A stretch of DNA of 20,000 bases from an uncultured virus (IMG/VR IMGVR_UViG_3300023054_000005) (taxonomy: Duplodnaviria > Heunggongvirae > Uroviricota > Caudoviricetes). Each line of letters opens with the position of its first letter. The stretch's first letter is position 1. The notes under the pieces were generated by a model that worked only from the letters and a program-made list of their open reading frames with translations, was not told the origin of the DNA and did not search any database. Location: the IMG/VR virus record IMGVR_UViG_3300023054_000005. One strand, given 5' to 3'. Made by a program: the position numbers and the translations under genes. Of the stretch, positions 1,994 to 20,000 are shown one piece after another.

Positions 1994-2317
1994 ATGTCTG
2001 AAGTTAAACAAAGAAAATCAATCCAAACTATTACTGATCCTCTATTAGAACCCTTTTTTATAACAAAGGATGAATATAGTTACACAGTAAAACAAAATGT
2101 AACATCTGATTCTTCTCATTTTAGGAGCAAAGGAAAAACAAAAACTTATGAAAAATCTTTATATTATTTCACAAATTTAGATCAAGCTTTAGTAAAAATT
2201 TCAAATTTGAAAGCGGATATAGAAGATGTAAGTTCATTAGAAGAGTATATAAACAATTATATAACAATAAGTAATAACATTAAAAAATACACAGATGGCA
2301 TTAGAAGCATTGTTTGA
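1994..2317 (+). CDS. Hypothetical protein
   Basis: 107 aa ORF after a promoter motif, overlapping the groES start. Confidence 0.75.
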   Translation: MSEVKQRKSIQTITDPLLEPFFITKDEYSYTVKQNVTSDSSHFRSKGKTKTYEKSLYYFTNLDQALVKISNLKADIEDVSSLEEYINNYITISNNIKKYTDGIRSIV

Positions 2318-2588
2318 TGCAGTTATAGTTAAACCTATAGAAGCAGAAGAAACCACGTATGGTGGAATTATTGTACCTGACTTAGGTAAAGAAAAAAATG
2401 AAACAGGAGAAGTAATCGCTGTAGGTCCAGGGAGATATACAATTTCAGGTAAACTTCTACCTACACAATTAAAAACAGGTGACATAGTAGTATTACCTAC
2501 CATGGGGTTTACTAAATTACCATACAATGGTGAGGAATATTATGTAGGTCCTGAGAATAGTGTCTTAGCAAAAATAAACTCTAATTAG
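2295..2588 (+). CDS. groES: Co-chaperonin GroES (Cpn10)
   Basis: 97 aa; EEETTYGGIIVP-like mobile loop (AEETTYGGIIVPD), GEVIAVGPG, LKTGDIV; adjacent to groEL. Confidence 0.95.
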   Translation: MALEALFDAVIVKPIEAEETTYGGIIVPDLGKEKNETGEVIAVGPGRYTISGKLLPTQLKTGDIVVLPTMGFTKLPYNGEEYYVGPENSVLAKINSN

Positions 2589-2777: not shown

Positions 2778-4400
<1,623 letters not shown>

Positions 4401-6483: not shown

Positions 6484-6707
6484 ACCCATTATTATACAAA
6501 ATGTTATTAACTTCTGCAGAAGCAGATAGAGCAAAAGCCATGCTATCCTTTGATTTATTAGGAAATAAGGCAGCAGGAATTGGTGATCATTCAACCGAAG
6601 ATTTTTATAAAAATGCTGAAGAGACACTTAGGATGTTGATTGATGCTGATGAGAGAATAGAAAAACTAAAAATTCAATTTTTAAAATTTACACAAATAAA
6701 TGGGTAG
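6480..6707 (+). CDS. Hypothetical coiled-coil protein (GIGDH motif)
   Basis: 75 aa, overlaps both neighbours. Confidence 0.7.
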   Translation: MNPLLYKMLLTSAEADRAKAMLSFDLLGNKAAGIGDHSTEDFYKNAEETLRMLIDADERIEKLKIQFLKFTQING

Positions 6708-7164
6708 CGCTGTAACAAAACATTTCGAGAATGTGGAAAATAAATTACCTCATAACCAATTCCCCATAGGGAAAAAATATTGGGAAAATCTTACTCACCC
6801 TACAAATATGAGAGGTGAAGTACCCCAAAATGCAGTACAAATATTTGAAAACGAATACGGGGCACTATCCAATGAGTTTAAACAAATACAACATGAACAA
6901 TACGAGTTATTTGCTAGAAAACACTTAGATTATGGACTTAATAATATTGCTTTGGGCGGAGATATCGTTAATAATAGCAATGACAAGAAGTTTTCACTAA
7001 CTGGGTTGTGTATTAGATTAACGGATAAAATATCACGTTTAAAAAATTTATTAGTTAATGGAAAAAGTTTTGTTGAGGGTGAAGGGATGGAAGATACATT
7101 TATAGATATAGCAAATTATGGAATAATAGGTTTGTTAGTTGGTAGAGATAAATGGCGTAAATAA
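6700..7164 (+). CDS. DUF1599 / nucleotide-modification-associated (Nmad1-like) protein
   Basis: KHLDYG, IRLTDKISRLKNL and EDTFIDIANYGII motifs. Confidence 0.7.
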   Translation: MGSAVTKHFENVENKLPHNQFPIGKKYWENLTHPTNMRGEVPQNAVQIFENEYGALSNEFKQIQHEQYELFARKHLDYGLNNIALGGDIVNNSNDKKFSLTGLCIRLTDKISRLKNLLVNGKSFVEGEGMEDTFIDIANYGIIGLLVGRDKWRK

Positions 7165-8399: not shown

Positions 8400-9839
8400 A
8401 TGAATAAAAGTTTTAAACATCTTCCACAAAAAGAAAGGAAAAAAATACTCCTCTTATGTGATGACCTTAGAGTACATTCTGGTGTTGCAACTATTGCCAA
8501 AGAAATTGTAACTCATACATCACACCACTTTAATTGGGTGCAAATGGCAGGAGCCATTAATCATCCTGAAAAAGGGAAAAAATTAGACTTAAGTCAAAGT
8601 ACTAATACTTTAATGGAGATTGATGATTCTTCTCTATTTTTATACCCACAAGATGGATATGGCAACCCCGATACATTACGACAAATAATAGCATCAGAAA
8701 AACCTGATGCCATCATGTTAATTACAGATCCTAGATATTTTACTTGGATTTTCAATATGGAACATGAAATACGTCGTAAAATTCCTATTACCTATCTAAA
8801 CATTTGGGACGATTATCCTGCTCCAATGTACAACCAACCTTACTATGAGGCTTGTGATTTATTAATGGGAATATCAAAACAAACTGTAAACATTAATAAA
8901 ATTGTTTTAGGTGATAAGGGTAAAAATAAAATTTTTAAATACATACCCCATGGTCTAAATGAGGATGTATACAAACCTGTATCTAAAACAGACCAGGGTT
9001 TTGTTCAATTTAAAAAGATATTATTTGGTGGGTTTGATCCCAAATTTGTACTGTTTTTCAACTCAAGAAATATTAGAAGAAAACAAATCCCGGATGCAAT
9101 GTTAGCCTTTAGACATTTTTTAGATAGTTTACCTAAGGAAGAGGCTTTAAAATGTAGAATGGTACTACATACTGAATTGACATCAGACCACGGGACAGAT
9201 TTAGAAGTGGTTAAAGAATATTTTTTTGATGAAGAATATGAAGATACAATTGTATTTTCTACTCAAAAATACCACCAAACACAACTAAATTATTTATATA
9301 ATATAGCAGACGTACAGATATTACTTACTTCTAATGAGGGTTGGGGTTTAACTTTAACTGAAGCTATGTTATCTGGAACCCCCATAATAGCTAATGTTAC
9401 AGGAGGTATGCAAGATCAAATGAGATTTGTAGATTCAAACGGGGAATGGTTTACCCCTTCACCTGAAATCCCATCTAACCATAGAGGAACTTATAAAGAA
9501 CATGGAGAATGGGCATTTCCCGTTTACCCAACATCTAGATCTATCCAAGGTTCATCTCAAACACCTTATATTTTTGACGATAGATGTGAATGGGAAGACG
9601 CTTCTAAACAAATTAAAGCAATATATGATTTAGATCCTGAAGAACGTAAAGCAAGAGGATTAAAAGGCAGAGAATGGGCTTTAAGTGAAGAAGCAGGTTT
9701 TAATTCTAAGCATCAGGCTAATAGAGTTATGGGGGCGTTTGATGAATTATTTTCAACATGGGAACCCAGAGAAAAATATGAAATAATAAATGCCAACGAT
9801 TATAAAGGTAAATTTTTAAAACATAATATAATATACTAA
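8400..9839 (+). CDS. Glycosyltransferase, GT-B fold (GT4-like)
   Basis: SGVAT, IPHG, RNIRRK and NEGWGLTLTEAMLSGTPII (EX7E motif). Confidence 0.9.
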   Translation: MNKSFKHLPQKERKKILLLCDDLRVHSGVATIAKEIVTHTSHHFNWVQMAGAINHPEKGKKLDLSQSTNTLMEIDDSSLFLYPQDGYGNPDTLRQIIASEKPDAIMLITDPRYFTWIFNMEHEIRRKIPITYLNIWDDYPAPMYNQPYYEACDLLMGISKQTVNINKIVLGDKGKNKIFKYIPHGLNEDVYKPVSKTDQGFVQFKKILFGGFDPKFVLFFNSRNIRRKQIPDAMLAFRHFLDSLPKEEALKCRMVLHTELTSDHGTDLEVVKEYFFDEEYEDTIVFSTQKYHQTQLNYLYNIADVQILLTSNEGWGLTLTEAMLSGTPIIANVTGGMQDQMRFVDSNGEWFTPSPEIPSNHRGTYKEHGEWAFPVYPTSRSIQGSSQTPYIFDDRCEWEDASKQIKAIYDLDPEERKARGLKGREWALSEEAGFNSKHQANRVMGAFDELFSTWEPREKYEIINANDYKGKFLKHNIIY

Positions 9840-11565: not shown

Positions 11566-12207
11566 ATGAAAATAAGTTATGCAATACTTACACATAATGA
11601 AGGAAAATATATCGAAAAACTCCTTCCCTTTCTTATAAAAAATAAAAGGAAACAAGATGAAATTGTGGTGGTAGACGATTTTTCTGAAGAAGAATTAACT
11701 GTGGAATTACTCCTAAAATATAAAAATGAAATCCATTTAAATTATAGAAAATTTGATGGGGACCATACCCAGAAAAATTATCTTAATAGTGAATGTAGTG
11801 GGGATTATATTTTTCAATTAGATGCGGATGAAATAGTAAGCAAGGAATTTATAGAATTCCTCCCTCAACTATTAACTACCAACCCAGATATTGAATTGTT
11901 TTACTGTCCTAGAATAAATACCGTCTCAGATTTAACCTCAGAGTATATAACTAAATGGGGTTGGAATATAAACGAAAGGGGGTGGGTAAACTTCCCAGAT
12001 TATCAGATGAGGTTATATAAAAACCTCTCAAACATTAAATGGGAAGGATTACTCCATAGTAGAATTGTAGGATTTAAATCATATTCAACCCTCCCAAAGG
12101 AAGAATTGTATTGTATATTACACCTTAAGGATTTAAACCGTCAAATTCAACAAAATGATTTATATGACAGAATTGAATCTAAAGGTAGGCAAAAATACAA
12201 AGTATAA
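11566..12207 (+). CDS. Glycosyltransferase family 2 (GT-A fold)
   Basis: ISYAILTHNE, EIVVVDDFS and DYIFQLDADE (DXD motif). Confidence 0.9.
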   Translation: MKISYAILTHNEGKYIEKLLPFLIKNKRKQDEIVVVDDFSEEELTVELLLKYKNEIHLNYRKFDGDHTQKNYLNSECSGDYIFQLDADEIVSKEFIEFLPQLLTTNPDIELFYCPRINTVSDLTSEYITKWGWNINERGWVNFPDYQMRLYKNLSNIKWEGLLHSRIVGFKSYSTLPKEELYCILHLKDLNRQIQQNDLYDRIESKGRQKYKV

Positions 12208-13638: not shown

Positions 13639-14280
13639 ATGCCACAACCCAAACCTTTAAGTAAGACTCAAATTTTAGCAGCAATGGCTAAAACAAAATC
13701 TAATATGGCTAGCGCCCGCTACCTTCATGTTTCATATCAACATTATAAAAGACATGCTAAAAATTATGAAGCTACTAAGGAGGGTTATGAAAATCTATTT
13801 GACCAACATAAAAACCAAAGTGGAAAAGGCATACCTAAGTTTTTAAATAATGGTAAGAAAGATCCTGCGTTATTAGATATAATAGAAGGTAAGATATCTC
13901 CTTCACATTTTAATCCCTCTAAAATCAAATATCGTTTAATTGAAGAAGGATATCTGGAAGAAGAATGTTCAATATGCAAATTCAGTGAACGTAGAGTATT
14001 AGATTATAGAGTTCCACTTTTATTACACTTTAAAGATAAAAACGGGAATAACTATAACCAGAATAATATTGAATTACTATGTTATAACCATTACTTTTTA
14101 TATGTTGGGGATGTTTTTAACGCTATTGATGAAAAACAAATAGAATCCCACACACCTTTAAATAATACTACAGACGCTGTTAATTTTGAAATGGATGAAT
14201 ATCACTTACAACGTTTAAAGGAATTAGGATTGGGGGATGATGACGAAGATAGTACTAACCAATATATTAGTCGAATGTAA
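13639..14280 (+). CDS. HNH-like protein with N-terminal HTH-like region
   Basis: CSIC...LLLHFKDKNGNNYNQNNIELLCYNH resembles a degenerate HNH motif; SMASARYL-like helix (SNMASARYLHVSY) near the N-terminus. Confidence 0.6.
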   Translation: MPQPKPLSKTQILAAMAKTKSNMASARYLHVSYQHYKRHAKNYEATKEGYENLFDQHKNQSGKGIPKFLNNGKKDPALLDIIEGKISPSHFNPSKIKYRLIEEGYLEEECSICKFSERRVLDYRVPLLLHFKDKNGNNYNQNNIELLCYNHYFLYVGDVFNAIDEKQIESHTPLNNTTDAVNFEMDEYHLQRLKELGLGDDDEDSTNQYISRM

Positions 14281-14435
14281 TGAAGAATAAAAACCACAAT
14301 AAAATAATTAAAGACTACGATAAACAAAAATCCAAAACTTTAAAAAAACTTGCCAGTAAATTGTTGGATATCCAGGATAAATTTCATATATTACGGGGTA
14401 AGAAAATTAATGATAATTTTTTAAAAAATTTTTAA
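14280..14435 (+). CDS. Small basic hypothetical protein; not in ORF track
   Basis: 51 aa MKNKNHNK...FLKNF; TAATG coupling to the upstream gene and ends 1 nt before the next gene. Confidence 0.6.
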   Translation: MKNKNHNKIIKDYDKQKSKTLKKLASKLLDIQDKFHILRGKKINDNFLKNF

Positions 14436-14436
14436 T

Positions 14437-14745
14437 ATGAAATTTAAACATAAGTGGAAGATTGAAACTGAAAAGGAAATGGAAATGTTATTTATGGAAA
14501 ATGATAAAAACCTCCATAATTTAATTGTGGATGAGGTTTTATTGCATTATAGAAATAGGAAAAAAACTATCCCTATATTATCCATTCATACTAAGGATTC
14601 GAAGATGAATTTTGATATATGTGTTGACCCCCAAGATATACCTGAGACATTAATGCAAAATCTAAAGATAATGGAGAACTACGAGGATTATGAAAGATGT
14701 ACTAAAATTCAAAATATTATCACCATCTTTAAAAATAAAGGGTAG
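14437..14745 (+). CDS. Hypothetical protein with C-terminal UvrB/UvrC-like motif
   Basis: NLKIMENYEDYERCTKI; TTG-N20-TATATT motif upstream at 14364-14392. Confidence 0.65.
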   Translation: MKFKHKWKIETEKEMEMLFMENDKNLHNLIVDEVLLHYRNRKKTIPILSIHTKDSKMNFDICVDPQDIPETLMQNLKIMENYEDYERCTKIQNIITIFKNKG

Positions 14746-14782
14746 AGATTGGTTTTAACCCATATTTATTACAAAAAAAAAT

Positions 14783-14917
14783 ATGGCAAAAACTATTGTA
14801 AATACTGTTACACCTAAGGGTAGTGTTAAAAGAAAAGGAGTTCATTCAAAAAGCAAAACTTCAAAAACAAAAAAAAGTAAAAATTATGAAAAAGGCTATA
14901 ATGGTCAAGGAAGATAA
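14783..14917 (+). CDS. Small Lys-rich protein ending GQGR; not in ORF track
   Basis: 44 aa MAKTIVNTVTPKGSVKRKGVHSKSKTSKTKKSKNYEKGYNGQGR with an A-rich leader and ATATTTAT upstream. Confidence 0.65.
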   Translation: MAKTIVNTVTPKGSVKRKGVHSKSKTSKTKKSKNYEKGYNGQGR

Positions 14918-15053
14918 AGAAGAAAGGGTTATTCAAAGTCTCTTAAAACAGATGAATGATAGTGATCTTATTTACCTTCATAAACACAACAAACTAGGTG
15001 TGTTTTGTTACGCCCTATCTCTTGATTTGCATTTCTTAAACCCCATATTCTAA
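14886..15053 (+). CDS. Hypothetical protein (start probably ATG 14886 or 14901)
   Basis: 3' part of track ORF 14823..15053; ends within a terminator hairpin. Confidence 0.45.
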   Translation: MKKAIMVKEDKEERVIQSLLKQMNDSDLIYLHKHNKLGVFCYALSLDLHFLNPIF

Positions 15054-15072
15054 AGATATGGGGTTATTTTTT
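15039..15072 (+). terminator. Rho-independent terminator
   Basis: aaccccatat-tctaaag-atatggggtt followed by a T tract. Confidence 0.8.
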
Positions 15073-15084
15073 ACATGGGATGTG

Positions 15085-15131
15085 TTTCATATATTCCTGT
15101 ACATTAATCAACTAAAACTGTATATGTTATG
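15085..15131 (+). promoter_or_regulatory. Promoter/leader module, copy 1
   Basis: tttcatatattcc...ttaatcaactaaaac...gttATG; similar to 15672-15718 with identical spacing. Confidence 0.55.
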
Positions 15132-15641
15132 AGTAAAATGTCAACTTTAATGGTTCCTCTTTTAAATGAAATTCTAATTAAAGAAATAGGGGAATCAAAT
15201 ATTCCACCCTTAGATTGGAAACAGGTAAGCCCTACTAAGTATGGATTTACAGTAAATATTGGGGGATTTAATGAGAGAGTTGTAGTAGAATTTGATAATT
15301 TTGATCCGGATTTAATATCAAAACAATTCTATTTACCAAGGTATCTTCAAGACTTGGATAAAACTTACAATGTGGGTTATGATGTAAGTGGAGATGAGGT
15401 CCAATTTGCTCAAAGTGATATAAAAACTTTATTAACTATTTTATCAACTGTAATCTCCGTTATAAAAGATTTTATATTATCTGAGGATCCTAATGTACTT
15501 TATATAGAAGCTACAGAAAAACAAGGAGAAAAAATTCAAAAATCTAATTTATATAAAGCATACATTCTCCATCAACTGAAAACAATACCTGGATATCAGA
15601 CTATATCAAGAAGAAAAGGAGAATTAATTTTTAAAAAATAA
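15129..15641 (+). CDS. Hypothetical protein
   Basis: 170 aa ORF following the leader module. Confidence 0.75.
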   Translation: MSKMSTLMVPLLNEILIKEIGESNIPPLDWKQVSPTKYGFTVNIGGFNERVVVEFDNFDPDLISKQFYLPRYLQDLDKTYNVGYDVSGDEVQFAQSDIKTLLTILSTVISVIKDFILSEDPNVLYIEATEKQGEKIQKSNLYKAYILHQLKTIPGYQTISRRKGELIFKK

Positions 15642-15653
15642 ATAATGAAAGGC

Positions 15654-15718
15654 TTGTATATGTAAATTTTACTTCGTATATTCCGGCATGTTAATCAATT
15701 AAAACAATAAAGGTTATG
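15654..15718 (+). promoter_or_regulatory. Promoter/leader module, copy 2 (TTG-N20-TATATT)
   Basis: ttg 15654-15656, then cttcgtatattcc...ttaatcaattaaaac...gttATG. Confidence 0.6.
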
Positions 15719-15832
15719 TTATTAAATCAACAAGAAATTTTAGAATACTGGTTTGGAATTGGAATGAACCTAGGTCTCACTGAGGCTCAGGCAATTAAAT
15801 ATTCAGAAATTCAACTTCAAGATTACAAATAA
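15716..15832 (+). CDS. Small hypothetical protein; not in ORF track
   Basis: 38 aa MLLNQQEILEYWFGIG...QDYK, TAATG-coupled to ORF 15832. Confidence 0.6.
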   Translation: MLLNQQEILEYWFGIGMNLGLTEAQAIKYSEIQLQDYK

Positions 15833-16269
15833 TGGCACTTTGGGAAATTAGTACTCTAAATAAGCATAGAAATTTTAGAACTCGTATAGTACACTCTGAA
15901 GGAAGTTTAAGTGTAAGTGATGGATTTGGTCCGGTACATTATGTCAAAAGATTTACATATAAACATATTAATGGTTTCAATCCTCCAATGTTAACCAACA
16001 TAGGTGGCAAGCATTATTTAATGCCAGGTTGGGTTGAAGTTCACCCAAAAACCAACTTAAAGGATATCATATGGGATAAACCTAAACCAAAAGCAAAATT
16101 TAAAATTGAAGTAATAACCCATAGATTTATTTCATCTAAAGGGGATAAAGAATATCTAACTAAGGAATCAACTCAATTAGATGGTTCAATTAAATATAGT
16201 TGTAACTGCTTTGGAGCTATTAGAGCAAAAGATGGACGCTGTACCCACATTAAAAGTATTGAAAAATAA
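15832..16269 (+). CDS. SWIM zinc finger protein
   Basis: C-terminal YSCNCFG...GRCTHI (CxC...CxH). Confidence 0.75.
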   Translation: MALWEISTLNKHRNFRTRIVHSEGSLSVSDGFGPVHYVKRFTYKHINGFNPPMLTNIGGKHYLMPGWVEVHPKTNLKDIIWDKPKPKAKFKIEVITHRFISSKGDKEYLTKESTQLDGSIKYSCNCFGAIRAKDGRCTHIKSIEK

Positions 16270-16303
16270 TATACAATTAATTTAAATATAAAAAAAAGAA
16301 TAA

Positions 16304-16723
16304 ATGAAGAACTTACTTTGGTTAGACGATATTAGAAACCCTTTTATAAATGAAGAAGGTAAAGTACCAACAGATGCGGATGGTGGAGATTATAATATAA
16401 ATTGGGTTTTGAATTATGAACAGTTTGTAAAATGGATTGGAATATTTGGGTTACCTGATGCTATTTCTTTCGACCACGATTTAGCGGATGAGCATTATAC
16501 ACCTGAATATTTTTGGGAAGATTATGATGAAAGTAAAAAATTTCAAGAATGGCGTGGTGAGAGTTACAAGGAAAAAACAGGAATGGATTGTGCCCAATGG
16601 TTAGTAGATTATTGCATGGACAACCAGAAAAAATTACCCAGGATATTTATACACTCCGCAAACCCCGTTGGTGCAGATAATATAAAAGGGTTGCTGGATA
16701 ACTTTATTAAATATTGTAGTTAA
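16304..16723 (+). CDS. Cyclic-phosphate-processing receiver-like domain protein
   Basis: LWLDDIRNP, ISFDHDL, TGMDCAQWL and IHSANPVG motifs. Confidence 0.75.
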   Translation: MKNLLWLDDIRNPFINEEGKVPTDADGGDYNINWVLNYEQFVKWIGIFGLPDAISFDHDLADEHYTPEYFWEDYDESKKFQEWRGESYKEKTGMDCAQWLVDYCMDNQKKLPRIFIHSANPVGADNIKGLLDNFIKYCS

Positions 16724-16740
16724 AGTACCTTTTAAGGAAT

Positions 16741-16874
16741 ATATAAAAAACGTAAACGATGATTTATAAAATAAAATATAAATTTAGATTATACTTATTA
16801 GAACGTAAATTAATAATAACTAAACAACGGAAAGCGATAAGTAGTTTATTTTCTTTGTGCGTTGTTGTGAAATT
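16741..16874. repeat. Degenerate attC-like element A
   Basis: Right arm gtttattttctttgtgc-gtt-GTTgtgaaatt; weak left arm atataaaaaacgtaaac with no AAC core. Confidence 0.4.
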
Positions 16875-16878
16875 TTAA
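16759..16878 (+). CDS. Micro-ORF reading through element A right arm
   Basis: 39 aa MIYKIK...SLFSLCVVVKF. Confidence 0.35.
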   Translation: MIYKIKYKFRLYLLERKLIITKQRKAISSLFSLCVVVKF

Positions 16879-16882
16879 ACAG

Positions 16883-17026
16883 ATGAAAGGATTTACAGGA
16901 TTTAAATGGTGGGAGCAAGAAAACCCAGCTTATAGGAAAGCTTGCAGAAGACAAGCCTCTAAAGAATTAATAGAATTAAAAGGACAATACGATTACTTTA
17001 TTAAAAAAACAGTAAGTAAGGTTTAA
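16883..17026 (+). CDS. Micro-ORF
   Basis: 47 aa MKGFTGFKWWEQENPAYRKAC...; stop abuts element B. Confidence 0.55.
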   Translation: MKGFTGFKWWEQENPAYRKACRRQASKELIELKGQYDYFIKKTVSKV

Positions 17027-17147
17027 TTTTTTACAAAGCATTGTGTATGCCTAGTAGCGTATAAATAGAAACAAATATTAATTAATAAATAAAACTTATA
17101 AAAATGACTAAAGAAACAAGAACTTTTATTTGGGGAATGACGCTACT
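17025..17147. repeat. Degenerate attC-like element B
   Basis: Left arm aattttttacAAAgcattgtgtatgcctagtagcgt (AAC changed to AAA); only acgctact (17140-17147) of the right arm remains complementary. Confidence 0.5.
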
Positions 17148-17292
17148 TCTTGTATGCGGAATAGGATTAGCATTACATATTGTTGATTTTATAAACGGAA
17201 CATTTGAATATGGATGGAATTGGTTATTATTTGCAGGGTGTGCGTTTGGCAGCATACAAGGAGGTGTTAAAATAACACAGACCACCGATTAA
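17104..17292 (+). CDS. Small two-TM membrane protein
   Basis: 62 aa with two hydrophobic stretches. Confidence 0.7.
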   Translation: MTKETRTFIWGMTLLLVCGIGLALHIVDFINGTFEYGWNWLLFAGCAFGSIQGGVKITQTTD

Positions 17293-17427
17293 TTGCATAT
17301 AACTTATGCGTGTATAGTTTGTTAACTATGTGATTAATAAAAGTACACTATAAAAATAGATTTGGTAGATTGATGTTAATTTAGTAAATTTGTTAATAAA
17401 TTATACACGCTGTTGGTTGCAGTTATT
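17291..17427. repeat. attC-like element C
   Basis: AAC 17301; gcgtgtatagtttgttaac pairs with gttaataaattatacacgc (17/19, both mismatches G.T); GTT 17412. Confidence 0.85.
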
Positions 17428-17472
17428 TTATAAAACCCCATTAATTTTATTTAAAATTAAAATACATAATAT

Positions 17473-17601
17473 ATGAACACAAACGGAGATAAGTTTTTTA
17501 TTTTAACCAACCCTATATTTTGGGTGTATTTTTTAATTATGACCATCTACTACTTAATAGATATGCTAAATATTTTTGATAAAAAACAAAACCAGAACTA
17601 A
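17473..17601 (+). CDS. Micro-ORF, single TM
   Basis: 42 aa MNTNGDKFFILTNPIFWVYFLIMTIYYLIDML..., TAATG-coupled to ORF 17601. Confidence 0.55.
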   Translation: MNTNGDKFFILTNPIFWVYFLIMTIYYLIDMLNIFDKKQNQN

Positions 17602-17822
17602 TGATAAAATGTGATAAAGGATGGCATAGTGGTGAATGCTGTTGTAATTGTAAAAACCAAATTGAGTTATTTAAACATCCTTGGAATAAGATAAACCAAG
17701 GAGCTTCTAATGAAGCTACTAATATGTTTGCTTGTATAGTGGAACACGATTGTAATAAAACAAATAAAGGAGTTATATTTGAAAATAAACATGGTCTTTG
17801 TGAAATGCATTGCGGTAAATAA
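17601..17822 (+). CDS. Cys-rich small protein
   Basis: 73 aa with CCCNC...C...C...CEMHC. Confidence 0.65.
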   Translation: MIKCDKGWHSGECCCNCKNQIELFKHPWNKINQGASNEATNMFACIVEHDCNKTNKGVIFENKHGLCEMHCGK

Positions 17823-17879
17823 AATGAATAAAAAAATTAAAATTAAAAGCTATTTTAAATAAGTATATATTAAAAAAAA

Positions 17880-18089
17880 ATGATAAATAATCTAGTAGTA
17901 AAACACAATAATGATAATGAAAATTTTAGAATTTTTGTTAATCACGGTAGTTATACTTATTCAGCAGAATATAATTTAATTGATTTATTTGATAATAAAA
18001 AATACATATTTAATTGTCAATCCATAAAAGAATTGTCTGACAAAGAAATAAAAGAAAGAATAATTAGTTATCATTTAGACACGATATAG
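17880..18089 (+). CDS. Hypothetical protein
   Basis: 69 aa with A-rich leader, followed by a terminator. Confidence 0.55.
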   Translation: MINNLVVKHNNDNENFRIFVNHGSYTYSAEYNLIDLFDNKKYIFNCQSIKELSDKEIKERIISYHLDTI

Positions 18090-18112
18090 GCCGTAATATA
18101 TGTGGCCTTTTT
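18088..18112 (+). terminator. Rho-independent terminator
   Basis: aggccgta-atata-tgtggcct followed by tttt. Confidence 0.6.
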
Positions 18113-18114
18113 AC

Positions 18115-18263
18115 AATAATGACTGCCAACGTATTTGTGTATAAAATGTACGAGTAAAAATAAATAGAATTTAATATTAATAATTAAAATAAGTAAAGAT
18201 GAAAAAAGTAAATTTAAACAGAATTAGTAAGTATTTTTTATACACGTTGTTGGTTGTAGTCTT
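18115..18263. repeat. attC-like element D
   Basis: AAC 18128; gtgtataaaatgtac / gtattttttatacac (13/15); GTT 18249. Confidence 0.85.
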
Positions 18264-18498
18264 ATTTACGGGATGTGCCGATGTCTCTAATATAGAAGCG
18301 TGTACCACAGTTGCTCCTTATGGATTTTGGGGAGGACTTTGGCACGGAATGATTGCACCATTTGCATGGATAGGTAGTTTGTTTAGTAGCGATATAGCAA
18401 TATATGCTGTAAATAATAACGGAGGTTGGTATGACTTCGGATTTATATTAGGTATAGGCGCGTTAAGCAGTAGCTCTACAAGTGCAGCAAAAAGATAG
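18199..18498 (+). CDS. Putative lipoprotein / membrane protein
   Basis: Signal peptide with lipobox FTG-C; GFWGGLWHG...NNGGWYDFGF. Confidence 0.8.
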   Translation: MKKVNLNRISKYFLYTLLVVVLFTGCADVSNIEACTTVAPYGFWGGLWHGMIAPFAWIGSLFSSDIAIYAVNNNGGWYDFGFILGIGALSSSSTSAAKR

Positions 18499-18503
18499 TA
18501 AAT

Positions 18504-18651
18504 AATATTACTTACAACGTACCCTTTTATTGCATTTTGCGTAAATTAATAATTAGTAAATAAATATAACATAAATGATAGAATATAAACAATTTAGTAA
18601 AAAAGTAAATAAAAAGCAATTTGTTATAAAAGATGTTGGCATTTGTTTTTT
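18504..18651. repeat. attC-like element E
   Basis: AAC 18516; cttttattgcattttgc / gcaatttgttataaaag (13/17); GTT 18635. Confidence 0.75.
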
Positions 18652-18721
18652 TGATACTAAATTTACTTTTTTACTATTAATAGGCTTTTTATTATTAATA
18701 ATAATCTTTAATTATCTATAA
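18575..18721 (+). CDS. Micro-ORF with C-terminal TM
   Basis: 48 aa MIEYKQ...QFVIKDVGICFF...LLLIGFLLLIIIFNYL. Confidence 0.55.
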   Translation: MIEYKQFSKKVNKKQFVIKDVGICFFDTKFTFLLLIGFLLLIIIFNYL

Positions 18722-18723
18722 AT

Positions 18724-18883
18724 AAAAAATAACTACCAACGAATTGTATAAGGTACGTTGCGACCTTGAATTAAGCAACAAAACTAATTAATAGATAAAA
18801 AATGAGTTTGATTAGTAGGTTGTTTAGTAAAAAGAAAGTAAAGAAAAAATGCTTTATATACGGTGTTGTTGAATCGTTTTATT
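18724..18883. repeat. attC-like element F
   Basis: AAC 18738; tgtataaggta / tgctttatata (paired with G.T wobbles); GTT 18865. Confidence 0.7.
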
Positions 18884-18969
18884 GTTATGACCACAAGAAC
18901 CCACATTATGAAAGCACTTGCCAAAGACAATGCGAGGCTTGTAATTTAATGGATGGAACTAAACAATAA
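18802..18969 (+). CDS. Micro-ORF, Cys-rich
   Basis: 55 aa MSLISRLF...CFIYGVVESFYC...CQRQCEAC.... Confidence 0.6.
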   Translation: MSLISRLFSKKKVKKKCFIYGVVESFYCYDHKNPHYESTCQRQCEACNLMDGTKQ

Positions 18970-19112
18970 TATGGTTTACAACGCATTGTATAAGAAATGT
19001 TGCGTTTAATTATAGTGAAATTAATAAATAAAATCATAAATTATGTTTAAAGAATTAGATTATAAAAATGGAGAAAGTAGCAATTTTTTTTATACGTTGT
19101 TATTTGAAGTGC
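18965..19112. repeat. attC-like element G
   Basis: AAC 18980; gtataagaaatgttgc / gcaattttttttatac (13/16); GTT 19099. Confidence 0.8.
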
Positions 19113-19282
19113 GTGATAAGTACAGACAATTATTTATAAGCATTGACGCTGAAGAAGCACAAAAGAGAGGTTTTAGATTTGTAACAAACATTTACGGCGA
19201 TAGAATAAACCAATTAAATTGCAGAAGCCTATGGATAGACCATAAAAACCGAACGTGGCGAGTAGAGCAATTAAACATTTAG
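19043..19282 (+). CDS. Hypothetical protein
   Basis: 79 aa; starts inside element G. Confidence 0.7.
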   Translation: MFKELDYKNGESSNFFYTLLFEVRDKYRQLFISIDAEEAQKRGFRFVTNIYGDRINQLNCRSLWIDHKNRTWRVEQLNI

Positions 19283-19426
19283 CATTGCATATAACGTATT
19301 TGTGTATGTAGCGTTGCGAGTAGATAAACAATAATTTTTAATAAGTAATAAACTAAATAAAATGGATAAAAGTAAAGACCTAGAAACAGAACAGCAATGT
19401 GATATACACGTTGTTAGCATTAGTAT
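19282..19426. repeat. attC-like element H
   Basis: AAC 19293; gtgtatgtagcgttgc / gcaatgtgatatacac (12/16 plus 3 G.T); GTT 19413. Confidence 0.85.
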
Positions 19427-19562
19427 GGCTGATAAAGCACAAATGATAAATGCATTAATTAACACAATGGATATATGTAAAAACAAACTTGGGGGTTATC
19501 ATAGCATTAGGGATGGCGCACGTGAAAAACTGGAAGGATTAATTAAATCAATTGATATTTAA
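19362..19562 (+). CDS. Hypothetical protein
   Basis: 66 aa; starts inside element H. Confidence 0.7.
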   Translation: MDKSKDLETEQQCDIHVVSISMADKAQMINALINTMDICKNKLGGYHSIRDGAREKLEGLIKSIDI

Positions 19563-19834
19563 TATTACTGCTAACGGTTTATGTATGGGTAGTTTTTGCC
19601 CGATTTAATTAAAATAAAATAAATTATGAAAGAGATAGAACAATTATTTGGAGGTGCAAATGCTGAAGAGCAAAACATATTACTGCACATAATAAAAGAG
19701 CGAGGTTATGAGTTTTTTGAGAAAACACCTAAAACAACTATGACTATTCGTTTGCTTGAAGATTTGCACGAACTTGGTTATAAGATAGTGAAGCAAGGGC
19801 AATAATTACCTATACACGTTGTTGTGGTGTCGTT
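19562..19834. repeat. attC-like element I (enlarged loop)
   Basis: AAC 19573; gtatgggtagtttttgccc / gggcaataattacctatac (16/19); GTT 19821. Confidence 0.8.
19626..19805 (+). CDS. Hypothetical protein lying within element I; not in ORF track
   Basis: 59 aa MKEIEQLFGGANAEEQ...LHELGYKIVKQGQ. Confidence 0.7.
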   Translation: MKEIEQLFGGANAEEQNILLHIIKERGYEFFEKTPKTTMTIRLLEDLHELGYKIVKQGQ

Positions 19835-19836
19835 TT

Positions 19837-19980
19837 AATGCACTACAACTTATGCGTATAAACATTGTTACGGATAAATAAACTAAAACTTAATTATGAG
19901 ACCAGTAGATTTTAAAGATGAATTTTATTCTAGAAACCCATTAAGCAGTAATAATGATTTATACGTTGTTGTTACAAGTG
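19837..19980. repeat. attC-like element J
   Basis: AAC 19847; cgtataaacattgttac / gtaataatgatttatacg (one G.T, one bulged A); GTT 19968. Confidence 0.8.
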
Positions 19981-20000
19981 ATTTTTTGCAAACAGACCAA
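19896..20000 (+). CDS. Micro-ORF, 3'-truncated by window
   Basis: MRPVDFKDEFYSRNPLSSNNDLYVVVTSDFLQTDQ... open to the window end. Confidence 0.55.
   Translation, partial: MRPVDFKDEFYSRNPLSSNNDLYVVVTSDFLQTDQ

What the first reader, a model, noticed from the sequence alone, without database searches (positions are those of the whole stretch)
18635..19849. Outer flanks pair across each ORF, the footprint expected of circular cassette insertion
Seen: sequence from the GTT of element n is complementary to sequence ending at the AAC of element n+1. E/F gttggcatttgtttttt vs aaaaaataactaccaac (14/17); G/H gttatttgaagtgc vs gcattgcatataac (11/14); H/I gttagcattagtat vs atattactgctaac (12/14); F/G and I/J pair with one bulge; A/B gttgtgaaatt vs aattttttacaaa. 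C/D and D/E are weaker. Left arms are also mosaic at AAC: C and H share the outer ttgcatat, D and H share the inner gtatttgtgtat, and C and J share the inner ttatgcgt. Established: in integron arrays the R'' box matches the core at the start of its own cassette because both derive from one attC of the circle. Inference: these units were inserted by site-specific recombination at the core.
Basis: partly seen in the sequence, partly recalled or inferred. Interest (0 to 1): 0.75.

Follow-up and report, generated by a model that had tools for sequence, protein, structure and literature searches.

The report
Hairpin-jointed gene cassettes in a phage
A large T4-like phage of salt-lake Flavobacteria carries a row of about a dozen tiny genes joined at short AAC/GTT points whose flanks pair just as expected if each unit had once been a folded circle, much like bacterial integron cassettes but with no integrase in sight.

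Summary
Sequence after each GTT pairs with sequence ending at the next AAC far better than random pairings do: 0 of 100,000 permutations reach the observed sum, and 9 of 13 cognate pairs rank first of 15. The array runs from window 16826 to about 21409, 1.4 kb past the window end.

New here:
- The inner arms of each AAC…GTT element also pair cognate-specifically (0 of 100,000).
- Joining each unit into a circle gives one continuous helix, more stable than the integrated state in 12 of 12 units.
- Mismatches are G·T, not A·C (35:2, against 112:50 in non-cognate controls), so the coding strand folds.
- Variant contigs from the same lakes break off at the cores (7 of 20 places; 3.3% expected).
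- The same arms occur in over 150 other Bacteroidota phage sequences, including Polaribacter phage P12002L, where two were published as attC sites (CALIN).

This phage record (85% complete) has no recombinase. Four of 10 related records encode a small Xer-type one.

Best reading (about 0.5): integron-like cassettes recombined as folded single strands. Main rival (about 0.3): PeSL-like regulatory hairpins shuffled by general recombination.

This scan had already noted the same system on other DNA.

The parts
16826..16866 (+). Element A: compact AAC...GTT element of 41 nt. Its twin, element N, lies past the window end at about 21025-21069.
17035..17060 (+). Element B: degenerate left arm (AAA in place of AAC) with no clear right arm. 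It is the one unit that fails the pairing test.
17301..17414 (+). Element C: AAC, inner arm X', loop, inner arm X, GTT. The X'/X stem has 16 of 18 Watson-Crick pairs plus 2 G.T. The loop holds a -33 TTTG, a 20-nt spacer and a -7 box at 17361-17392; the box consensus is recalled, not from a call.
17412..18130 (+). Body C: three small ORFs (17473-17601, 17601-17822, 17880-18089) and a terminator-like G+C hairpin with a T run (about 18090-18115). It is bracketed by complementary flanks Y and Y'.
18128..18251 (+). Element D: its loop holds the ATG (18199) of a lipoprotein-like ORF (18199-18498). The right arm encodes part of the signal peptide.
18516..18637 (+). Element E: same subtype as element L, which lies past the window end. 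Its loop holds the ATG at 18575.
18635..18740 (+). Body E with flanks Y (18635-18651) and Y' (18724-18740), 14/17 complementary. It carries the rest of a 48-aa membrane-like ORF (18575-18721).
18738..18870 (+). Element F: its loop holds the ATG at 18802.
18980..19101 (+). Element G: the X'/X stem spans 16 positions. Window 19018-19293 (loop, right arm and body G) is 83.8% identical to Cellulophaga phage Nekkels_1 2631-2905, and the match ends at the next AAC.
19293..19415 (+). Element H: a widespread module. Its 20-nt right arm occurs exactly in 25 viral contigs, fused in frame to about 19 unrelated bodies.
19573..19823 (+). Element I: here a whole ORF (19626-19805) sits between the inner arms.
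19821..19849 (+). Compact 'empty body' hairpin: GTT, 6-nt stem, 11-nt loop, 6-nt stem, AAC. It belongs to a family with at least 111 unique copies in viral contigs and compensatory stem changes.
19847..19970 (+). Element J. The array goes on past the window end with elements K to O, up to about window coordinate 21409.

Best explanation
The region is a cassette array built from two kinds of hairpin-bounded modules that alternate and meet at conserved triplets.
- 'Elements' run AAC, X', loop, X, GTT. The loop usually carries an AT-rich promoter-like leader, a start codon and about 15 codons.
- 'Bodies' run GTT, Y, rest of the ORF, Y', AAC.

X' pairs only with its own X, and Y only with its own Y'. 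In the integrated array the two helices on either side of a core are unrelated. In an excised AAC-to-AAC circle they stack into one imperfect rod of 30-40 bp, with the paired AAC/GTT in the middle and a 5-6-nt bulge after AAC. That is the layout of an integron attC site seen on its folding strand.

I infer that units are gained, lost and swapped by recombination of the folded coding strand at these cores. The likely enzyme is a small Xer-type tyrosine recombinase that some relatives encode and this phage lacks, so it would be supplied in trans, lost, or sit in the missing 15% of the record.

Shown: the anatomy, both covariations, the strand bias, break points at the cores, and the spread of the family. 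Inferred: the circular intermediate, the enzyme and the point of strand exchange.
For: (1) Outer flanks: cognate pairing reached by 0 of 100,000 permutations. Replicated in 14 of 20 independent units from other contigs.

(2) Inner arms: same-element X'/X score 23.1 against 13.9 for other pairings, 0 of 100,000 permutations. X(n) with X'(n+1) scores 12.25, no better than chance. Stems span 16-18 positions.

(3) The circular form is more stable than the integrated form in 12 of 12 units.

(4) Strand bias: in the window's cognate arms G.T outnumbers A.C 35:2, against 112:50 in non-cognate alignments (Fisher p=0.0008). A further 12:0 is seen in 13 units elsewhere.

(5) Break points:
- L009 and L061 are 99.65% and 100% identical on either side of a roughly 1.26-kb indel of two units. 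Both ends of the indel lie at ...TACAAC.
- L061 is 99% identical to the window from AAC of element L onward and unrelated before it.
- 7 of 20 listed loose ends of metagenome contigs lie within 2 nt of a core, where 3.3% is expected (p=2e-6; 5 at AAC, 2 at GTT).

(6) One unit is shared with an unrelated 53-kb phage, Nekkels_1.

(7) Both module types also exist 'empty', closed by the same 11-nt loop:
- GTT...AAC form: 97 of 111 unique viral copies are fully paired, with 35 distinct stems.
- AAC...GTT form: at least 18 copies.

(8) P12002L carries the same array. Its published attC1 is an AAC-X'-loop-X-GTT element. IntI1 recombined one strand of attC2 only, and that strand is the phage's coding strand.

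(9) In 6 of 6 loci of a Xer-type recombinase (256-271 aa), the gene starts within about 70 nt after an AAC core. One of these records has a T4-type portal.
Against: - No recombinase is present. Six-frame searches of the 138,667-bp record for Phage_integrase, Resolvase and Y1_Tnp families found nothing at E<=1, and a search with the relatives' recombinase found nothing at E<=10. Pfam scans of 94+54 ORFs show only homing-type nucleases (GIY-YIG, HNH), a PD-(D/E)XK nuclease and a UvsX-like recombinase.
- Six of 10 related records lack a tyrosine recombinase, including three rated 100% complete and one 95%.
- The recombinase's upstream motif resembles a second promoter-like repeat that is common in this genome, so its position next to a core may be generic.
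- Break points occur at GTT as well as AAC. Crossovers inside the conserved elements, plus selection for intact helices, would give the same picture.
- ORFs read through GTT in two frames, so exchange there would often break the frame.
- A 29-nt 'empty body' with a conserved loop is odd for a cassette.
- The published attC1 was not verified as recombined by IntI1.
- The hairpins are co-oriented with the downstream gene (91 against 8) and sit just after stop codons, which also fits an RNA role.
Confidence: 0.5

Rival explanations
1. PeSL-like mobile regulatory cassettes. The arms are regulatory stem-loops (insulators, terminators or processing stems) that act in read-through transcripts of the coding strand. 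The roughly 110-nt conserved elements are simply the homology at which the T4-type recombination machinery swaps modules. No dedicated recombinase and no site-specific cut are involved. Only recombinants that keep both arms of each helix survive, so break points appear at the cores.
For: - The phage is T4-like, with T4-type portal, gp32-like, RecA/UvsX-like and clamp-loader proteins.
- The array is a run of small ORFans: 0 of 11 hit Pfam and 2 of 14 hit PHROGs of unknown function.
- PeSLs are stem-loop plus early promoter plus start codon. They flank indels in T4-type hyperplastic regions and form mini-circles (Comeau 2014, parts 1-2 of 3 read; Arbiol 2010, passages).
- The hairpins point the same way as the downstream gene (91 against 8) and follow stop codons.
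- A G.T bias fits G.U pairs in RNA.
- No recombinase is present here.
Against: - The two helices abut exactly at shared triplets and become continuous only in a circle. An RNA role does not require that.
- X' lies upstream of the promoter-like boxes of element C, and the terminator-like hairpin of body C comes before Y'. A transcript from that promoter would therefore carry neither partner.
- The X'/X stems enclose promoters and start codons.
- The junction of L061 with the window has only about 2-6 nt of shared sequence on the diverged side.
- Described PeSL stems are local hairpins, not split around ORFs.
Confidence: 0.3
2. Payload insertion at hairpin tips. The primary units are the compact hairpins closed by the 11-nt loop. 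Promoters and ORF bodies were inserted at the tip of the hairpin, for example after tip cleavage of an extruded palindrome and repair. This leaves the two half-stems as inverted repeats around the insert.
For: - Both polarities of module exist empty with the same loop.
- Filled units often keep the two loop halves next to the stems. Compare L142 (filled) with L138 (empty), which share the same stem.
- Arms of filled units are more decayed than those of empty ones.
Against: - Most filled units in the window keep no trace of the loop halves.
- The model does not explain break points at the cores.
- It does not explain the persistent strand-specific G.T bias.
- It does not explain in-frame read-through from leader to body in all 21 H-type units.
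Confidence: 0.1
3. Each body is a miniature transposon (MITE-like) with terminal inverted repeats, or the array is an invertible shufflon.
For: Every body is bounded by inverted repeats of 10-20 nt that start GTT and end AAC.
Against: - The repeats differ from body to body, so no single transposase-binding end is shared.
- There is no transposase.
- There are no target-site duplications.
- 139 of 141 called ORFs lie on one strand, so there is no sign of inversion.
- The G.T bias points to single-strand pairing, not duplex recognition.
Confidence: 0.04
4. Chance complementarity in AT-rich DNA around a repeated promoter motif.
For: The region is 31% G+C, and the repeat finder lists 234 inverted pairs in 6 kb.
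Against: - Permutation tests give 0 of 100,000, twice.
- The pairing is replicated in other contigs.
- Compact hairpins were found without asking for pairing: 97 of 111 are fully paired, where about 0.3% is expected per random pair of 6-mers. Chance hits in bacterial genomes show 0-4 pairs.
Confidence: 0.01

Closest known systems
Integron gene cassettes and attC sites, and CALINs (attC clusters without an integrase), including the CALIN reported in the virulent Polaribacter phage P12002L (Qi et al. 2023, PMC9892861; passages and supplementary primer table read)
   Same: - Imperfect hairpin sites have paired AAC and GTT cores, inner and outer paired boxes, and an unpaired spacer.
- The outer box matches the start of its own cassette.
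- One strand folds.
- The cassettes are small ORFs of unknown function.
- P12002L carries the same arms, and its published attC1 is one of these elements.
   Different: - There is no IntI. The recombinase in relatives is Xer-type and scores below the integron-integrase cut-off (101.7 against 265 bits).
- Outer pairing is 10-20 nt, not 4.
- Sites span 38-251 nt and usually hold a start codon and leader.
- Genes lie on the folding strand.
- Break points are seen at both AAC and GTT.
- Both module types can be empty, closed by one conserved 11-nt loop.
PeSLs (promoter-early stem-loops) of T4-type phages (Arbiol et al. 2010, PMC2839356; Comeau et al. 2014, PMC4122927)
   Same: - The setting is a T4-like phage with a hyperplastic region of small ORFans.
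- A repeated composite element with stem, promoter-like leader and start codon stands before each gene.
- Indels between close relatives are bounded by the elements.
   Different: - PeSL stems are local hairpins upstream of a sigma70-like promoter. Here the stems are split around the leader and around the ORF body.
- The stems here are cognate-specific and meet at fixed triplets.
- Exchange in PeSLs was mapped within the promoter/Shine-Dalgarno region, not at a core.
Xer-mediated integration of folded single-stranded phage DNA (CTX-type phages).
   Same: A Xer-type tyrosine recombinase acts on a hairpin folded from one DNA strand.
   Different: That system integrates a whole filamentous phage genome at the host dif site. 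It does not build arrays of cassettes inside a lytic phage genome.

Membership tests
Integron (IntI plus attC cassette array) | An integron-type tyrosine recombinase gene next to the array | tested here: not met
   No Phage_integrase match at E<=1 in six frames of the 138,667-bp record, which is 85% complete. No match to the relatives' recombinase. That recombinase scores 101.7 bits against the integron-integrase model (cut-off 265) and is closest to Xer models.
Integron (IntI plus attC cassette array) | Sites are imperfect hairpins with paired AAC...GTT cores plus inner and outer paired boxes | tested here: met
   Inner arms are cognate-specific and span 16-18 positions. Outer arms are cognate-specific. 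A 5-6-nt unpaired spacer follows AAC.
Integron (IntI plus attC cassette array) | The outer box of a cassette's site is complementary to the start of that same cassette (the split-site footprint) | tested here: met
   The circular form is more stable in 12 of 12 units, and flanks in the integrated state score at background level.
Integron (IntI plus attC cassette array) | Short non-coding sites downstream of promoterless ORFs, which lie on the strand opposite the folding strand (features recalled) | tested here: not met
   Elements span 38-251 nt and hold ATGs and leaders; one holds promoter-like boxes. The G.T bias places folding on the coding strand.
Integron (IntI plus attC cassette array) | Strand exchange at a single fixed point, G|TT | tested here: inconclusive
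   Break points lie at AAC (5) and at GTT (2) among 20 listed loose ends. The indel has both ends at AAC. Element H is fused to many bodies at GTT.
CALIN (attC cluster lacking an integrase, as called by IntegronFinder or HattCI) | Two or more sites passing the attC models, with no intI nearby | not testable with these tools
   No attC model was at hand. An Rfam scan of 14000-20000 at E<=10 gave 5 weak, unrelated matches. Two relatives of these sites in P12002L were called attC by those programs.
PeSL (T4-type promoter-early stem-loop) | Lies in a hyperplastic region of small non-essential ORFs of a T4-type phage | tested here: met
PeSL (T4-type promoter-early stem-loop) | A local stem-loop directly upstream of a host-type early promoter, ribosome site and ATG | tested here: inconclusive
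   One compact hairpin (19821-19849) precedes a leader and an ATG. All other stems are split around leaders or ORFs. The host-type -7 box is not enriched (36 found, 35.6 expected), though element C has one good pair of boxes (consensus recalled).
PeSL (T4-type promoter-early stem-loop) | Indels between close relatives are bounded by the elements | tested here: met
   L009 against L061
PeSL (T4-type promoter-early stem-loop) | Mini-circles are formed during infection | not testable with these tools
   Only assembled contigs of DNA runs were available.

The most novel reading that the evidence does not exclude
Bacteroidota phages have their own cassette-exchange system, separate from integrons. 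A small Xer-type recombinase, acting in cis or from a co-infecting phage, recombines the folded coding strand at AAC/GTT joints. Two module types can be swapped independently: a promoter/start/leader module and an ORF-body module. New small proteins would thus be assembled as in-frame leader-body fusions and traded between unrelated phage families.
Probability: 0.3. Interest if true: 0.85.

Novelty: new variant of a known kind. Interest (0 to 1): 0.66.

Why it matters
Hypervariable early regions of lytic phages are where host-takeover and anti-defence genes turn over, and how they are shuffled is poorly understood.

Here the joints have an explicit anatomy: two cognate helices meeting at a 3-nt core, folding on one strand. 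That anatomy predicts a circular intermediate and a candidate enzyme. It occurs in over 150 sequences, including an isolated phage with a cultured marine host (P12002L), so it can be tested at the bench.

If recombinase-driven, it would be a second integron-like system with a different enzyme and opposite gene polarity, and a route for gene flow between unrelated phages. If not, it extends the PeSL idea to Bacteroidota phages and adds an unexplained class of ORF-enclosing stems.

Tried and rejected
- **Rfam:** a scan of 14000-20000 at E<=10 gave only 5 weak, unrelated matches.
- **Literature:**
  - A search for the loop string found only primers.
  - Two keyword searches found nothing on this architecture.
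  - The CALIN search found Qi et al..
- **RNA:** no RNA holder was listed for the region, so expression could not be examined.
- **Joints in metagenome contigs:** three 'skips' and one 'goes back' were listed. The three skip joints had short sides (22-37 nt) and unknown letters between, and I read them as mosaic relatives, not as excisions; the fourth lies outside the array. None was used as evidence.
- **Synteny:** the gene upstream of the array (16304-16723) found 10 related loci. One is identical (a fragment of the same phage). In the other nine, homology stops by the gene's end, so no orthologous array could be compared.
- **Extended compact hairpin:** the idea that the compact hairpin extends into X and the next X' was rejected. 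Cognate 13.0 against non-cognate 12.9 in 156 copies; 12.25 against 13.9 in the window.
- **Host-type -7 promoter box:** not enriched in the window.
- **Capsid-targeting leader:** considered for the shared leader peptide, as in T4 internal proteins. Dropped because the same DNA arm is read in two frames.
- **CRISPR-repeat mimicry:** considered for the GTTG...CAAC hairpins, from memory only. Not tested.
- **A second exact right arm (I-type):** found only 4 loci.
Full report
**What the window is.** The window is the minus strand of C1:63273-83272 of a single 138,667-bp virus record, 31% G+C, rated 85% complete.
- 139 of 141 called ORFs lie on the window's + strand.
- Pfam hits make it a T4-like myovirus: T4-type portal, prohead protease, T4-type terminase, gp32-like, RecA/UvsX-like, clamp loader, family-B polymerase, sheath, a SegE-type GIY-YIG nuclease and an HNH nuclease.
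- The nearest named DNA matches are Cellulophaga and Flavobacterium phages.
- The runs that hold the region are salt-lake metagenomes.

**The observation.** Reading 14000-20000 and the 6 kb beyond the window shows 15 left arms (AAC followed by an arm X') and 13 right arms (an arm X followed by GTT). They span window coordinates 16826 to about 21409.
- The right-arm motif is confined to this stretch of the genome.
None of 100,000 random assignments reaches the observed sum, and 9 of 13 cognate partners rank first of 15.
- B/C fails; element B is degenerate.
- Flanks of one and the same element, which face each other in the integrated state, are at background.

**What else is there.** The inner arms are also cognate-specific.
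- X'(n) with X(n) scores 23.1 against 13.9, reached by 0 of 100,000 permutations. X(n) with the next element's X' scores 12.25, no better than chance.
- These stems span 16-18 positions and start 5-6 nt after AAC but 0-2 nt before GTT.
- So the array is a chain of segments bounded by inverted repeats. 'Elements' (AAC...GTT) alternate with 'bodies' (GTT...AAC) and meet at the triplets.
- The loop of an element usually holds an AT-rich leader, an ATG and about 15 codons, and the ORF then runs through X, GTT and Y into the body (elements D, E, F, G, H, J). In A, C, K, L and N the ORF starts after Y. In I the whole ORF lies inside the element, and the body is a 29-nt hairpin (19821-19849).
- The right arm is translated in two frames in different genes, so it is conserved as nucleic acid, not as peptide.
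- Element C's loop has a -33/-7 pair of boxes (17361-17392; consensus recalled). Body C ends with a terminator-like hairpin that lies before Y'.
- Joined as a circle, [Y'+AAC+X'] and [X+GTT+Y] of one unit form a continuous duplex. It averages -17.1 kcal/mol, against -13.1 integrated and -13.5 with foreign flanks, and is lower in 12 of 12 units.

**Which strand pairs.**
- In the window's cognate arms, mismatches are G.T 35 times and A.C twice. The inner arms alone give 18:0, with the G always in X'.
- Non-cognate best alignments give 112:50, so composition explains a 2.2-fold bias but not 17-fold (Fisher p=0.0008).
- Thirteen units from other contigs add 12:0.
- Pairing is therefore kept on the coding strand as a single strand, whether RNA or DNA.

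**The family elsewhere.**
- The exact 20-nt right arm of element H occurs in 25 viral contigs.
  - In all 21 distinct units, an ATG 45-168 nt upstream is in frame with it, and the leader is fused to about 19 unrelated bodies.
  - In 15 of the 21, the stop codon lies 4-18 nt before the end of the pairing partner's AAC. In 5 of those, the stop is formed by a T plus the AA of the core.
  - The free 6-mers are fully paired in 97 of 111, with 35 different stems.
- The same pattern in bacterial and archaeal genomes gave 123 matches.
  - 53 are fully paired and share the same upstream flank, many of them in Bacteroidota genomes and MAGs.
  - 67 have 0-4 pairs, as chance predicts.
- The hairpins point the same way as the downstream gene (91 against 8 of 105; upstream 70 against 30) and usually follow a stop codon by 14-27 nt or contain it.
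- The opposite module type also exists empty, closed by the same loop (at least 18 copies).
- No Rfam family matches.

**Evidence for exchange.**
- Window 19018-19293 (leader, right arm and body G) is 83.8% identical to Cellulophaga phage Nekkels_1, an unrelated 53-kb phage. The match ends at the next AAC.
- Element H alone (19291-19415) is shared with L024 and L114 while the flanks differ.
- L061 is 99% identical to the window from the AAC of element L onward and unrelated before it.
- L009 and L061 are 99.65% (1,145 nt) and 100% (512 nt) identical on the two sides of a roughly 1.26-kb indel. The indel holds two units, one with a DPPY-motif methyltransferase-like ORF, and both of its ends lie at ...TACAAC.
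- Contigs of four salt-lake runs were laid on the array. Of 20 distinct listed places where a contig runs on unlike the reference, 7 lie within 2 nt of a core (5 AAC, 2 GTT), where 3.3% is expected (p=2e-6). Thirty more loose ends were not shown by the tool.

**Enzyme.**
- This record has no tyrosine recombinase, serine recombinase or Y1 transposase, and no remnant of the relatives' recombinase.
- First lead: a recombinase in relatives.
  - Of 10 related records that carry the hairpins, 4 encode a tyrosine recombinase and 6 do not. Three of the six are rated 100% complete and one 95%.
  - One of the four has a T4-type portal.
  - The protein (264 aa in L412) has Phage_integrase and SAM_4 domains. 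It is closest to Xer models and below every curated cut-off, including that of the integron integrase.
  - In 6 of 6 loci of this protein, the gene starts within about 70 nt after an AAC core: a compact hairpin in two, an inverted-repeat body in one.
  - 6 of the 111 unique viral hairpin loci are followed within 300 nt by its N-terminus.
  - The motif after these cores resembles a second promoter-like repeat that is common in this genome, so the adjacency may be generic.
- Second lead: Qi et al. 2023 (passages and primer table read).
  - They report a CALIN with two predicted attC sites in the virulent Polaribacter phage P12002L.
  - That genome carries the same array.
  - attC1 is an AAC-X'-loop-X-GTT element on the coding strand.
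  - attC2 is the reverse reading of a Y'-AAC-X' joint.
  - IntI1 recombined only the 'bottom' strand of attC2, which is the phage's coding strand. attC1 was not verified.

**Reading.** The double covariation, the abutting helices that become continuous only in a circle, the strand bias and the break points fit an integron-like mechanism acting on the folded coding strand, and I hold this at about 0.5.
- The main rival (about 0.3) is a PeSL-like arrangement. The arms would serve in transcripts, and the T4-type recombination machinery would swap modules within the conserved elements, with selection keeping helices intact.
- That rival explains the missing recombinase and the co-orientation with genes.
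- It does not explain why the helices meet at shared triplets. Nor does it explain why, in unit C, one partner of each helix would lie outside the predicted transcript.
- Insertion at hairpin tips (about 0.1) may account for how modules were first filled.
- Transposon, shufflon and chance readings are poorly supported.

**Novelty.** attC-like sites in a virulent Flavobacteriia phage are in print, and PeSLs are in print. My searches did not find the following described:
- the long outer pairing across each ORF;
- the cognate inner stems that enclose start codons;
- the coding-strand polarity;
- the two exchangeable module types with a common cap loop;
- the spread across more than 150 sequences;
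- the link to a Xer-type enzyme.

Supplements of other papers were not examined.

Noticed in passing
window 15086-15131 and 15673-15718; further copies in L002 (about window 21480-21523, 23730-23775, 24400-24445, 24930-24975, 25560-25605): A second, highly conserved upstream repeat (roughly TTCGTATATTC, about 10 nt, AATTAATTAAAACAATAAAGGTT, then ATG) stands directly before many genes outside the array. It is probably another promoter class with a fixed leader. A similar motif follows the AAC core in front of the Xer-type recombinase genes of relatives.
   Followed up: partly
Otherwise the two are identical.
   Followed up: no
window 2295-2588 and 2778-4400: The phage encodes its own GroES-like (Cpn10) and GroEL-like (Cpn60) chaperonin pair.
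   Followed up: no
G000 C1 about 86,000-89,400 and 101,900-102,800 (loci L006, L007): Genes of the 7-deazaguanine/queuosine precursor pathway are present (GTP cyclohydrolase I, PTPS, QueC). A DUF1599 'nucleotide modification' protein lies in the window (6700-7164), and two glycosyltransferases lie at 8400-9839 and 11566-12207. Together these suggest a modified phage DNA.
   Followed up: no
L007 7664-10893 (G000 C1 about 108,700-111,900): The large-subunit ribonucleotide reductase gene appears split into two ORFs with intein-splicing domain matches. This points to an intein, or an intein with an inserted gene.
   Followed up: no
window 16304-16723: The gene just upstream of the array encodes a cREC_REC (cyclic-phosphate processing receiver) domain protein. 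It is conserved at 68-87% identity in nine related loci, and homology stops by its stop codon.
   Followed up: partly
L135 1800-1890 and L412 1130-1230 (the same 48.5-kb record): The leader and the first roughly 30 nt of the Xer-type recombinase gene recur 7 kb downstream, directly after the AAC of another cassette and followed by an unrelated gene. This looks like a remnant or a second joint.
   Followed up: no
L412 1977-2636; P12002L gp51: A NinG/Rap-type junction-specific endonuclease gene directly follows the recombinase in one relative. One is also annotated in P12002L.
   Followed up: no
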